A stretch of 64,000 nucleotides of DNA from Escherichia coli (GTDB lineage: Bacteria; Pseudomonadota; Gammaproteobacteria; Enterobacterales; Enterobacteriaceae): the NCBI RefSeq assembly GCF_046105845.1, contig NZ_CP151004.1, one strand, 5' to 3'. Made by a program: the position numbers and the translations under genes. Under the pieces are notes generated by a model that was not told the DNA's origin, did no database searches, and was given only the letters and a program-made list of their open reading frames with translations. How positions within the stretch are numbered: the stretch's first letter is position 1; each line of letters opens with the position of its first letter. Shown in pieces: positions 2,772 through 36,351 of this stretch.

Positions 2772-3911
2772 ATGGTTTTGCAATCCACGCGCTGGTTGGC
2801 GCTCGGCTATTTCACATACTTTTTTAGTTACGGCATTTTTCTACCTTTCTGGAGCGTCTGGCTTAAGGGGATTGGTTTAACGCCAGAAACCATCGGCCTG
2901 TTATTGGGGGCAGGTCTGGTTGCCCGTTTTCTCGGGAGCTTGCTCATCGCGCCCCGCGTCAGCGATCCTTCTCGCCTGATTTCCGCCTTGCGCGTGCTGG
3001 CACTGCTGACACTTCTCTTTGCTGTCGCCTTCTGGGCGGGGGCGCACGTAGCGTGGCTGATGCTGGTGATGATTGGCTTTAACCTCTTTTTCTCACCGCT
3101 GGTACCGTTGACCGATGCACTGGCGAATACGTGGCAAAAGCAGTTCCCGCTTGATTACGGCAAAGTGCGATTGTGGGGCTCGGTAGCGTTTGTCATTGGC
3201 TCGGCGCTGACGGGCAAACTGGTCAGTATGTTTGATTATCGGGTGATCCTCGCGCTGTTGACGTTGGGCGTGGCATCCATGCTGCTCGGCTTTCTCATCC
3301 GTCCGACGATTCAGCCACAAGGGGCAAGCCGCCAGCAGGAGAGCACCGGTTGGTCTGCGTGGTTGGCGTTGGTTCGCCAGAACTGGCGCTTTCTGGCCTG
3401 CGTTTGTTTATTGCAGGGGGCGCATGCGGCCTATTACGGTTTTAGCGCCATTTACTGGCAGGCTGCTGGCTATTCGGCCTCGGCGGTGGGCTATTTGTGG
3501 TCGCTGGGCGTGGTGGCGGAAGTCATTATCTTTGCGCTGAGTAATAAACTTTTCCGCCGTTGTAGTGCACGCGATATGCTGTTGATCTCAGCGATTTGCG
3601 GCGTAGTGCGCTGGGGCATTATGGGAGCAACTACGGCGTTGCCGTGGTTGATAGTGGTGCAAATTCTGCATTGTGGCACCTTCACGGTCTGCCACCTGGC
3701 CGCCATGCGCTATATTGCCGCTCGCCAGGGTAGCGAAGTCATCCGTTTACAGGCGGTTTACTCTGCCGTCGCGATGGGCGGCAGTATCGCTATCATGACC
3801 GTTTTCGCCGGTTTCCTGTATCAATATCTGGGCCACGGCGTGTTCTGGGTGATGGCGCTGGTGGCGCTTCCGGCAATGTTTTTGCGCCCGAAAGTTGTTC
3901 CCTCATGCTGA
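2772..3911 (+). CDS. hcaT: MFS transporter (3-phenylpropionate transporter)
   Basis: 379-aa highly hydrophobic ORF adjacent to hcaR. Confidence 0.9.
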   Translation: MVLQSTRWLALGYFTYFFSYGIFLPFWSVWLKGIGLTPETIGLLLGAGLVARFLGSLLIAPRVSDPSRLISALRVLALLTLLFAVAFWAGAHVAWLMLVMIGFNLFFSPLVPLTDALANTWQKQFPLDYGKVRLWGSVAFVIGSALTGKLVSMFDYRVILALLTLGVASMLLGFLIRPTIQPQGASRQQESTGWSAWLALVRQNWRFLACVCLLQGAHAAYYGFSAIYWQAAGYSASAVGYLWSLGVVAEVIIFALSNKLFRRCSARDMLLISAICGVVRWGIMGATTALPWLIVVQILHCGTFTVCHLAAMRYIAARQGSEVIRLQAVYSAVAMGGSIAIMTVFAGFLYQYLGHGVFWVMALVALPAMFLRPKVVPSC

Positions 3912-5183
3912 TTCGAGCATTTTGCGGATCTGCTCCTGTTGATGTGTTGTCAACGTCAGGTCCGTATAGATCAGCGGTGGTGAAAAGAGCGGTAACGGCA
4001 TGGTATAAGGAGCAATAATCAGTGCCGCGCTGCGCGGAGCGCCTGTCTGCAAAAATACCTTTACCGACATATGTTTAATGTTGAGCGGCAGTAACGTTAG
4101 TTCGCGTAGCTGCTGCTCAATCTGCGCTTCTCGCTCGCTATCATTCCCGGTCAGTAGAATAATCTGTTTCTTATGCAGGTCGTTTTCCTGCATTAGCCAG
4201 GCACCGAAAATCACCGCGACCAGACCGCTTTCCTCATCAGAAAGATGGACGCCGTATTCACTTTCAAATCCGGCCAGCGCCGCGCGGGTGGTGCGCACCA
4301 GGCGTGGATACAGGCGGGCGAACTCTTCCGGCAGGGTGTTATCAATACCGATGGCAAACAAACTGCGATTTAACGCCTGGGCGAGGTGGGTATAAAGCTG
4401 ATCGCATAACCCTTGTTCATCATAAAAACGAACATTTCCCAGCTCACGAAAGTGGTTTACCAGACGTTTGATAGACTGACGCAGTTGTCTGTCCCGCTGA
4501 TGCGCATCCCGCAGTGGATCGGGAACCCGCAACATGGAAAAAAGTAATGCCATAAACAGTGGCTCATCAGGCGGTACAGGCTGGAGCGCCCGACGCTGCC
4601 AGTGGCGTCCAATTTCCTGCGCTACCTGAAATTCAAGGCAGGATTCCGCCCAGCGACGTTGGAGCGGATTAAACTGAGGCGTAATTCCAGCGTGGTGTTG
4701 CAGCAAACAATATTGCAGATACAGACACAGGAAATGAATATCGCGTGTTTCAAAGCGTTTTTGCAGCCGTCGGGAGCAGAGATTCACTAACGCTTGTAGA
4801 TTGGTATCGTCGTAAAAGTTACGCGCAATTCCGCGCCGCTTCAGTTCACTCTTCAGGGCGGGGGTGAAATGGCTGGTAATAAATGACGGACAGAGACGGA
4901 AACCACGTCGTAGCCAGTGAAATAAACACAAACGTTGGTTAAGCACTGTACCTTCAACCCGGTAGCTACCGTCATAACCAGTAGTCAGTGTGAGTTGATG
5001 ATAGCGCAGGATCTCCCGTCCTGTTTCGCTGATATCAAGACTGGCAATATCATCATCCACACCATTAAGCTCGCTGAAAGTTGCCGTGGTGGCGGTCAAC
5101 CCCGGCTGAAAGAGCGTCAGCAAGATCTGGCAGCGGCGCTGGGGAGCCGAAAGGACAGATGGTGGAGCAAGCGTAGGCATCAT
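3903..5183 (-). CDS. csiE: stationary-phase inducible protein CsiE
   Basis: ORF in expected position; start taken at MMPTLAPP (426 aa) rather than the longer ORF-track start at 5204. Confidence 0.85.
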   Translation of the reverse strand: MMPTLAPPSVLSAPQRRCQILLTLFQPGLTATTATFSELNGVDDDIASLDISETGREILRYHQLTLTTGYDGSYRVEGTVLNQRLCLFHWLRRGFRLCPSFITSHFTPALKSELKRRGIARNFYDDTNLQALVNLCSRRLQKRFETRDIHFLCLYLQYCLLQHHAGITPQFNPLQRRWAESCLEFQVAQEIGRHWQRRALQPVPPDEPLFMALLFSMLRVPDPLRDAHQRDRQLRQSIKRLVNHFRELGNVRFYDEQGLCDQLYTHLAQALNRSLFAIGIDNTLPEEFARLYPRLVRTTRAALAGFESEYGVHLSDEESGLVAVIFGAWLMQENDLHKKQIILLTGNDSEREAQIEQQLRELTLLPLNIKHMSVKVFLQTGAPRSAALIIAPYTMPLPLFSPPLIYTDLTLTTHQQEQIRKMLESA

Positions 5184-14029: not shown

Positions 14030-14273
14030 TTTCCGCGTCATGCTTCACGCCGCAGATGCGTTGGCTGCGCTCGTTCACCCCAGTCACATAGTTATCTATG
14101 CTCCTGGGGCTTCACTCACTTGCCGCGTGATTCGGCCTTTTGGCCTCACCCCTCCGGGGCCAGCGCAAGCGCTGTTCAAAACGCAATGCGTTTTGTCCTG
14201 CAACGCGAATCATTTAGCGGAAAAATCCTGGGGCTGCCAACTGGCGGCCCTTTTACAAAGAAGGATAACTAGA

Positions 14274-34738: not shown

Positions 34739-36351
<1,613 letters not shown>

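What the first reader, a model, noticed from the sequence alone, without database searches (positions are those of the whole stretch)
3903..3911. Convergent 3' overlaps: hcaT/csiE (9 bp) and yfgJ/xseA (4 bp)
hcaT (+) ends at 3911 while csiE (-) ends at 3903; yfgJ (+) ends at 34954 while xseA (-) ends at 34951. Convergent overlapping 3' ends leave no room for terminators and imply antisense read-through between the pairs.
Basis: seen in the sequence. Interest (0 to 1): 0.25.

Follow-up and report, generated by a model that had tools for sequence, protein, structure and literature searches.

The report
Two short tail-to-tail gene overlaps
Two pairs of facing E. coli genes (hcaT/csiE and yfgJ/xseA) really do share their last 9 and 4 bases, but this is an ordinary, already annotated and already transcript-mapped kind of gene packing, not a new feature.

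Summary
hcaT (+) stops at 3909-3911 and csiE (-) at 3905-3903, sharing TCATGCTGA. yfgJ (+) stops at 34952-34954 and xseA (-) at 34953-34951, sharing TTAA. Both overlaps are annotated identically in E. coli K-12 MG1655 RefSeq.

The csiE/hcaT junction is in 5424 of 5426 complete E. coli genomes. The yfgJ/xseA junction is in 3658. The rest that I inspected carry a sinH adhesin island exactly between the two stops.

Both pairs are already listed as convergent "excludons" of MG1655 (PMC12288877). Published Term-seq puts the csiE mRNA 3' end 47 nt past its stop, inside hcaT. Published bicyclomycin data place a Rho termination region about 89 nt past the yfgJ stop, inside xseA, where the window has a 99th-percentile C>G stretch.

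So antisense overlap is real but short where it has been measured. "No room for terminators" is too strong, because termination signals sit inside the partner gene.

Across 35 Enterobacteriaceae species the csiE/hcaT spacing is -14, -9, -6, -4, 0 or +38 to +186 bp. The overlapped codons encode variable protein tails, and synonymous sites show no extra constraint. Best reading: neutral compaction plus stop-codon drift. Already known; low interest.

The parts
2772..3911 (+). hcaT CDS (3-phenylpropionate MFS transporter, 379 aa), stop TGA at 3909-3911
   Evidence: ORF list. NCBIfam TIGR00902/NF008346 cover residues 1-379. RefSeq annotation of homologous loci.
3903..5183 (-). csiE CDS (stationary-phase inducible protein, 426 aa from the RefSeq start; the ORF is open to 5204), stop TGA = reverse complement of 3903-3905
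   Evidence: ORF list. NCBIfam NF008597 equivalog covers 1-425/426. RefSeq annotation.
3903..3911 (.). 9-bp convergent CDS overlap TCATGCTGA. Each gene's TGA stop lies opposite a TCA (Ser) codon of the other gene.
   Evidence: The surrounding 60 bp are identical in 5055 of 5426 complete E. coli genomes.
3856..3902 (-). csiE 3' UTR, lying antisense inside the last 19 codons of hcaT. The mRNA 3' end maps to 3856 by transfer from K-12 Term-seq (MG1655 2666762 +, LB OD 2.0). It has no U-tract and is probably a Rho-dependent or processed end.
   Evidence: Adams et al. 2021 supplementary file 1. Coordinate transfer, with the 51 nt upstream identical. Fold not better than shuffles, z -0.3 to -0.5.
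34739..34954 (+). yfgJ CDS (double zinc-ribbon protein, 71 aa), stop TAA at 34952-34954, downstream of der on the same strand
   Evidence: RefSeq annotation. Pfam PF07191 on homologues.
34951..36321 (-). xseA CDS (exodeoxyribonuclease VII large subunit, 456 aa), stop TAA = reverse complement of 34951-34953
   Evidence: NCBIfam TIGR00237. RefSeq annotation.
34951..34954 (.). 4-bp convergent CDS overlap TTAA (a stop codon on both strands)
   Evidence: The contiguous junction is present in 3658 of 5426 E. coli genomes.
34981..35017 (+). Perfect 9-bp inverted repeat (CGGCTGGAT ...19 nt... ATCCAGCCG) inside the xseA C-terminal codons. It is a candidate stem-loop in the yfgJ 3' UTR with no U-tract after it. 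Function inferred only.
   Evidence: the repeat finder. RNA fold of 34930-35050 gives -33.9 kcal/mol, z -3.3. It is absent from the island-type xseA allele.
34994..35071 (+). C-rich, G-poor stretch of the yfgJ 3' UTR (C/G 2.30, 99th percentile of the window). It spans the position (35043) equivalent to the published Rho termination peak MG1655 2635510 (-).
   Evidence: composition. Adams et al. 2021 supplementary file 2: -BCM 110 to 17 reads, +BCM 126 to 74 reads, Rho score 3.8, p 2.3e-6. Coordinate transfer.

Best explanation
These are two ordinary short tail-to-tail overlaps of real E. coli genes. They were produced by loss of intergenic spacer and drift of stop codons, not by selection for a special device. 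In each pair one or both proteins end in a short, poorly conserved tail that is read until the first reverse-strand stop. TTAA is a stop on both strands, and TCA...TGA places each stop opposite a serine codon of the partner.

Because there is no spacer, each mRNA's 3' UTR is the antisense of the partner's last codons. Once the ribosome has left, transcription is ended inside the partner gene mainly by Rho acting on the untranslated, C-rich RNA. This is shown in K-12 for the der-yfgJ transcript. Trimming or pausing at small stem-loops then gives the mapped csiE 3' end 47 nt past its stop.

Shown: the overlaps; their annotation and population frequency; the antisense csiE 3' end; Rho dependence on the yfgJ side (the last two in K-12). 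Inferred: the same route for hcaT and xseA, the neutrality of the overlap, and transfer of the K-12 transcript data to this strain.
For: The overlaps are exact and identical to the K-12 annotation.

In 35 Enterobacteriaceae species the csiE/hcaT spacing takes many values: -14, -9, -6, -4, 0, +38, +89, +186. The positive gaps contain REP-like palindromes.

The HcaT tail after ...RPKV varies in length and sequence, while CsiE ends ...MLES plus or minus one residue. Synonymous change in the last 45 codons of either gene is not unusually low (ranks 42/412 to 319/365).

yfgJ overlaps by TTAA with xseA in E. coli and Citrobacter, but with an unrelated emfourin gene in Enterobacter and Klebsiella. 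About one third of E. coli genomes lack the contiguous junction, and the four inspected have an island between yfgJ and xseA instead.

No canonical terminator follows any of the four stops. The published Rho region sits 89 nt past the yfgJ stop, on a 99th-percentile C>G stretch. The published csiE 3' end lies 47 nt past its stop, seen only in stationary phase. E. coli has 75 convergent overlapping pairs.
Against: 31 of 35 species keep csiE and hcaT overlapping or abutting, which could also reflect selection for tight coupling. The 60 bp around the junction are identical in 93% of E. coli genomes, although the flanking 600 bp are mostly 95-99% identical to the window. No 3' end or Rho data exist for hcaT or xseA. 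The first 100 nt after the hcaT stop are G-rich (C/G 0.4-0.6), so read-through there may be longer. The transcript data are from K-12, not from this strain.
Confidence: 0.75

Rival explanations
1. Functional excludons. The spacerless arrangement is selected because overlapping 3' transcription lets each gene repress its partner, through transcriptional interference and RNase III cleavage of the RNA duplex. That would give mutually exclusive expression of csiE versus hcaT and of der-yfgJ versus xseA.
For: Both pairs are listed among 165 convergent excludons found in at least 50% of 58 MG1655 RNA-seq sets. The spacerless csiE/hcaT junction persists in 31 of 35 species. The TTAA overlap at yfgJ recurs with different partners.
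Against: With overlapping coding sequences, any full-length mRNAs overlap by definition, so the listing says nothing about regulation. The excludon paper could not validate convergent pairs by p19 dsRNA capture. Overlap length and reading-frame phase vary, and REP-like insertions of 38-186 bp are tolerated. The yfgJ/xseA junction is missing from a third of E. coli genomes, and those inspected carry an 11.7-kb island there. There is no extra synonymous constraint. The measured antisense extensions are only about 47 and 89 nt.
Confidence: 0.12
2. Collision-driven bidirectional termination. Converging RNA polymerases meet head-on at a stem-loop-encoding element near the junction and terminate each other, independently of Rho and of U-tracts (the class described by Ju et al. 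2019 and Wang et al. 2022).
For: The pairs are convergent and lack canonical terminators. The csiE 3' end lies at a small GC stem without a U-tract. The concept is described for hundreds of E. coli genes.
Against: The yfgJ-side termination is bicyclomycin-sensitive, that is Rho-dependent. That class is defined as Rho-independent and works best for highly expressed pairs, whereas hcaT, csiE and xseA gave few or no 3'-end calls. Only one of the four 3' ends is mapped, so the defining pair of overlapping 3' ends has not been shown.
Confidence: 0.1
3. Annotation artefact. One stop codon in each pair is mis-assigned, because of a wrong frame or a sequencing error, and the genes do not truly overlap.
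For: None found.
Against: A stop is fixed by its reading frame. The frames are supported to the last residues by curated family profiles, by orthologues in up to 35 species, and by identical sequence in thousands of independent assemblies.
Confidence: 0.02

Closest known systems
E. coli K-12 MG1655 RefSeq annotation: csiE (b2535)/hcaT (b2536) and xseA (b2509)/yfgJ (b2510)
   Same: The genes, orientation, overlap lengths and overlap strings (TCATGCTGA, TTAA) are the same.
   Different: The window is another E. coli strain. It is 95-99% identical to most genomes over 600 bp.
Convergent excludons of E. coli (ExcludonFinder, Sanmartin et al. 2025, PMC12288877)
   Same: Both pairs are named in that paper's Table 1 as convergent pairs with overlapping transcription.
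   Different: Mutual exclusion and RNase III processing, which define a functional excludon, have not been shown for these pairs. The overlap is forced by the coding-sequence geometry.
Rho-dependent termination in untranslated or antisense RNA (Adams et al. 2021, PMC7815308)
   Same: There is a bicyclomycin-sensitive termination region 89 nt past the yfgJ stop, antisense to xseA, on a C>G stretch.
   Different: It has been demonstrated for only one of the four transcripts, and in K-12.
Short convergent gene overlaps in prokaryotes (3'-end extension after stop-codon loss; PMC2716372, PMC4161906)
   Same: Tail-to-tail geometry, a few bases long. By the logic of the genetic code a 4-bp overlap must have the form YTAR. 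The overlapped codons encode non-conserved tails.
   Different: Nothing material.
Overlapping bidirectional terminators driven by RNA polymerase collision (Ju et al. 2019; Wang et al. 2022 preprint)
   Same: Convergent pairs without canonical terminators.
   Different: Rho dependence on the yfgJ side, low expression, and paired 3' ends not shown.

Membership tests
Short convergent (tail-to-tail) CDS overlap | Two protein-coding genes on opposite strands whose 3' ends share bases | tested here: met
   3903-3911 (9 bp) and 34951-34954 (4 bp).
Short convergent (tail-to-tail) CDS overlap | Both reading frames are genuine up to the stop codon | tested here: met
   NCBIfam equivalog profiles reach the C-termini of HcaT and CsiE. 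The XseA profile match stops at residue 359 of 456, so the XseA and YfgJ C-termini rest on orthologue alignment to the last residues. RefSeq annotation agrees.
Short convergent (tail-to-tail) CDS overlap | A 4-bp overlap has the form YTAR (a stop on both strands) | tested here: met
   TTAA here. TTAG, CTAA, CTAG and TTAA occur at the csiE/hcaT junction of other genera.
Convergent excludon | Transcripts of the two genes overlap in vivo | tested here: met
   From the literature for K-12 only: Table 1 of PMC12288877, and the csiE Term-seq 3' end 47 nt inside hcaT. Not measured in this strain.
Convergent excludon | Reciprocal (mutually exclusive) expression of the two genes | not testable with these tools
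   Needs expression data under induction of each partner. The paper gives none for these pairs.
Convergent excludon | RNase III-dependent processing of the sense/antisense duplex | not testable with these tools
   The excludon paper reports that p19 capture recovered very few 3'-UTR duplexes.
Rho-dependent terminator | Read-through increases when Rho is inhibited (bicyclomycin) | tested here: met
   yfgJ side only, in K-12: Rho score 3.8, p 2.3e-6 at 2635510 (-). There are no data for csiE, hcaT or xseA.
Rho-dependent terminator | Untranslated C-rich, G-poor RNA upstream of the termination zone | tested here: met
   34994-35071 (+) has C/G 2.30, the 99th percentile. The other three 3' UTRs reach 1.8-2.1 only 170-360 nt downstream, so they are inconclusive.
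Intrinsic (Rho-independent) terminator | Stable GC-rich hairpin followed directly by a U-tract, downstream of the stop | tested here: not met
   No convincing site within about 500 nt after any of the four stops, even with relaxed criteria. The control bamB-der terminator was found at -20.9 kcal/mol.
Collision-driven overlapping bidirectional terminator | Paired 3' ends of both convergent transcripts flanking one stem-loop, independent of Rho | tested here: inconclusive
   Only the csiE 3' end is mapped. The yfgJ side is Rho-dependent. The SEnd-seq tables are not held.

The most novel reading that the evidence does not exclude
The spacerless csiE/hcaT junction persists in 31 of 35 Enterobacteriaceae species despite changing overlap length, and the TTAA overlap at the yfgJ stop recurs with whichever gene lies next to it. 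Together these could mean that zero-spacer convergent junctions are themselves selected, for example as Rho- or collision-based mutual insulators or expression couplers. The E. coli haplotypes with and without the sinH island would then be a natural test of what the overlap does to xseA and yfgJ expression.
Probability: 0.1. Interest if true: 0.35.

Novelty: already known. Interest (0 to 1): 0.1.

Why it matters
It matters little as a discovery. Both overlaps are in the reference annotation, and their transcript overlap, one 3' end and one Rho site are already published.

The practical points are these:
- Knock-outs of one partner can damage the other. The Keio csiE deletion primer truncates hcaT.
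- 3' UTRs here are antisense to coding sequence, so expression studies need strand-specific data.
- The yfgJ/xseA junction is a polymorphic island-insertion site, useful as a natural comparison of overlapped versus separated gene ends.

Tried and rejected
- **Supplements.** I looked for more transcript-end data on these genes. The ExcludonFinder supplements are not held. The SMRT-Cappable-seq supplements have no mention of the four genes. The Dar & Sorek 2018 supplements are not held. Ju et al. 2019 is not held.
- **Known RNA families.** An Rfam scan of the whole window found no family at either junction.
- **Structure in the csiE 3' UTR.** The fold energy is no better than shuffles, z -0.3 to -0.5, so I dropped the idea of a structured terminator there.
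- **Terminator-like hairpin inside hcaT.** The hairpin at 3857-3874 (+) with tail AATGTTTTTG lies before the hcaT stop. I rejected it as the hcaT terminator because it would give non-stop mRNAs.
- **Embedded conserved element.** Synonymous-site conservation across 26-35 species showed no unusual constraint.
- **Mis-annotated stops.** Rejected.
- **Conservation of the inverted repeat 34981-35017.** It depends on the E. coli-specific codons DGWI...IQP. Other genera encode different residues there (for example ITP in K. aerogenes), which cannot keep the second arm, and the island-type xseA allele lacks it.

Full report
**Observation**

Reading the sequence and listing ORFs confirms the finding to the base.
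- hcaT (+, 2772-3911) ends ...CCC TCA TGC TGA.
- csiE (-) ends, on its own strand, ...GAA TCA GCA TGA, with the stop at 3905-3903.
- These two genes share 3903-3911 (TCATGCTGA). The codons are in register, and each TGA lies opposite a TCA serine codon of the other gene.
- yfgJ (+) ends GCT TAA at 34954, and xseA (-) ends CAT TAA at 34951. The shared TTAA is a stop codon on both strands.

NCBIfam equivalog profiles cover HcaT 1-379 and CsiE 1-425 of 426 and identify XseA. YfgJ homologues carry Pfam PF07191.

**Identity and prior annotation**

The window is E. coli. RefSeq annotates exactly these overlaps in three genomes:
- K-12 MG1655: csiE 2665435-2666715 / hcaT 2666707-2667846, and xseA 2634232-2635602 / yfgJ 2635599-2635814.
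- Strains PCN033 and VREC0761.

The overlap strings are identical to K-12. The 60 bp around the csiE/hcaT junction are present in 5424 of 5426 complete E. coli genomes and identical in 5055. The contiguous yfgJ/xseA junction is present in 3658 of 5426.

**Is it more than chance?**

No.
- A published count gives 663 overlapping adjacent pairs in E. coli, 75 of them convergent (PMC4161906).
- In the K-12 stretch colinear with this window there are seven convergent junctions. Their gaps are 137, 92, 38 and 37 bp, one junction occupied by small-RNA genes (16 / -2), and these two overlaps.
- With about 600-650 convergent junctions genome-wide (my estimate), two overlaps among seven has a probability near 0.19.
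- A 4-bp convergent overlap must read YTAR, which follows directly from the genetic code. The csiE/hcaT junctions of other genera show TTAG, CTAA, CTAG and TTAA.

**Transcripts (published, K-12)**

- Both pairs are named in Table 1 of the ExcludonFinder paper, among 165 convergent pairs with overlapping transcription in at least 50% of 58 MG1655 RNA-seq sets (PMC12288877).
- Adams et al. 2021 (PMC7815308) supplementary file 1 lists a Term-seq 3' end at 2666762 (+), classed "primary csiE, antisense hcaT". It appears only in the LB OD 2.0 sheet, which fits csiE being stationary-phase induced.
- I verified that the reported 61-nt string is -50..+10 around that position. It maps to window 3856 on the minus strand, 47 nt past the csiE stop, and the 51 nt upstream are identical in the window.
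- That end has no U-tract, and the region folds no better than shuffled sequence. It looks like a Rho-dependent or processed end.
- Supplementary file 2 of the same paper (DirectRNA-seq with and without bicyclomycin) lists a Rho termination region peaking at 2635510 (-), antisense to xseA. Coverage was 110 to 17 without the drug and 126 to 74 with it, Rho score 3.8, p 2.3e-6.
- That peak is 89 nt past the yfgJ stop, equivalent to window 35043.

**What the window sequence adds**

- Simple and relaxed scans find no convincing hairpin-plus-U-tract terminator within about 500 nt downstream of any of the four stops. The bamB-der terminator is recovered as a control at -20.9 kcal/mol.
- The yfgJ 3' UTR has C/G 2.30 in 34994-35071, the 99th percentile of 78-nt windows. 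This lies exactly over the published Rho peak.
- It is preceded by a perfect 9-bp inverted repeat at 34981-34989 / 35009-35017 (fold z -3.3). This could be the stem that stops 3' trimming, which is inference.
- The csiE, hcaT and xseA 3' UTRs reach C/G 1.8-2.1 only 170-360 nt downstream. The first 100 nt after the hcaT stop are G-rich. Read-through from hcaT into csiE may therefore be longer, but no data exist.
- No Rfam family lies at either junction.

**Evolution of csiE/hcaT**

A scan of one genome per species found csiE in 36 loci, 35 of them with hcaT convergent next to it. The spacing between stops is:

| Spacing (bp) | Taxa |
|---|---|
| -9 | Escherichia spp., Citrobacter amalonaticus/sedlakii, Pseudenterobacter, Intestinirhabdus |
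| -6 | Salmonella arizonae/diarizonae, several Citrobacter |
| -4 | Kosakonia, Leclercia, Pseudescherichia, Silvania, Cedecea, C. freundii |
| -14 | Buttiauxella |
| 0 | an E. coli-like species, Enterobacter soli |
| +38, +89, +186 | three species, where REP-like palindromes have inserted |

CsiE ends ...MLES plus or minus one residue. HcaT is conserved up to ...RPKV and then has a tail of variable length and sequence that simply runs to the first reverse-strand stop. Pairwise synonymous differences in the last 45 codons of either gene are within the bulk of the gene-wide distribution (ranks 42/412 to 319/365). There is therefore no sign of an embedded conserved RNA element.

**Evolution of yfgJ/xseA**

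- In E. coli strains 1439, AHB1 and AR_0013, an island of about 11.7 kb sits exactly between the two stops. It encodes sinH (an intimin-like inverse autotransporter), sinI and a giant adhesin. xseA is then separated from the adhesin gene by 53-68 bp.
- 742 genomes share one version of that junction, and 1768 of 5426 genomes lack the contiguous junction.
- Homology between the two haplotypes breaks within a few bases of the TTAA.
- In Citrobacter cronae yfgJ overlaps xseA by TTAA.
- In Enterobacter mori and Klebsiella aerogenes an emfourin (PF20242) gene plus an M4 protease gene occupy the slot, and it is the emfourin gene that overlaps yfgJ by TTAA.
- One Salmonella has a 177-bp gap. E. albertii has the sinH island.
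- The YfgJ and XseA tails beyond ...RVEF and ...PVKK are variable.
- The overlap is thus dispensable and re-forms with whatever gene abuts yfgJ.

**Explanation**

The best-supported reading (confidence about 0.75) is neutral compaction. Spacer loss and stop-codon drift leave two genes sharing bases that encode unconstrained tails. Termination signals are embedded in the partner gene rather than absent. Rho is demonstrated for the der-yfgJ transcript, and a short antisense 3' UTR for csiE.

Antisense overlap is real. "No room for terminators" holds only for canonical intergenic terminators. Where measured, the read-through is 47-89 nt.

The rivals are:
- a selected excludon switch (about 0.12);
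- collision-driven bidirectional termination (about 0.10), disfavoured by the bicyclomycin sensitivity and low expression;
- annotation artefact (about 0.02).

**Novelty and value**

This is already known at every level: annotation, transcript overlap, 3' end and Rho site. The practical relevance is modest. Deleting one partner can truncate the other, as documented for the Keio csiE mutant (PMC9431181). The island-plus and island-minus haplotypes offer a natural comparison. Interest 0.1.

Noticed in passing
window 34951-34954 (yfgJ|xseA junction); L006 9402-22657; L050; L051: The junction is a polymorphic insertion site. About one third of complete E. coli genomes lack the contiguous junction. 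The four inspected (including an ST131 hit) carry an island of about 11.7 kb (sinH, sinI, giant adhesin) exactly between the two stop codons. The flanks are deeply diverged: the last ~40 codons of xseA are 80-86% identical at the nucleotide level, and the N-terminal half of YfgJ is about 50% identical at the protein level.
   Followed up: partly
L047 3219-4589; L048 3213-4576; L045 3430-4806: In Enterobacter mori, Klebsiella aerogenes and a Salmonella, the slot between yfgJ and xseA holds an emfourin (PF20242) gene plus an M4 protealysin-like protease gene. In the first two the emfourin gene overlaps yfgJ by the same TTAA.
   Followed up: partly
window 34981-35017: A perfect 9-bp inverted repeat (CGGCTGGAT / ATCCAGCCG, 19-nt loop) lies inside the xseA C-terminal codons, just upstream of the position equivalent to the published Rho termination peak. 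It is E. coli-specific and absent from the island-type xseA allele.
   Followed up: partly
L028 ~3737-3825; L029 ~3737-3774; L038 ~3737-3922: In the three species where csiE and hcaT are separated (Dryocola, Cedecea, Buttiauxella sp. A111), the spacers are palindromic and REP-like in the first two (judged by eye). This suggests spacer is regained only by insertion of mobile repeats.
   Followed up: no
window ~36301 and ~36264 (-), equivalent to MG1655 2634252 and 2634289 (+): Published Term-seq lists ORF-internal 3' ends 21 and 58 nt into xseA (LB OD 2.0 and M63). This hints at premature termination or attenuation at the xseA 5' end.
   Followed up: no
window 3857-3884 (+): A terminator-like hairpin with tail AATGTTTTTG lies inside hcaT, 25-50 nt before its stop, on the strand opposite the mapped csiE 3' end (3856). 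It is unlikely to terminate hcaT, since that would give non-stop mRNA, but the GC-rich palindrome may shape ends on both strands.
   Followed up: partly
window 14131-14203 (-): A marginal Rfam hit to 'Aggregatibacter sRNA 22' (45.3 bits against a gathering score of 39.8), in what by my coordinate estimate is the pepB-iscX intergenic region. It is probably a terminator-like structure. The same scan found the expected ryfA, IS128, sroE and iscRS elements.
   Followed up: no
window ~16450 (ryfA/sseB), by K-12 annotation 2654157-2654158: The ryfA small-RNA gene and the convergent sseB coding sequence overlap by 2 nt in the K-12 annotation. This is a third spacerless convergent junction in the window.
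   Followed up: no
L010 3620-3640: In one E. coli-like species genome (strain E69), an in-frame TAA just after the CsiE ...MLE codons removes the last two residues and makes the two stops abut (gap 0). The 9-bp overlap is therefore dispensable.
   Followed up: no
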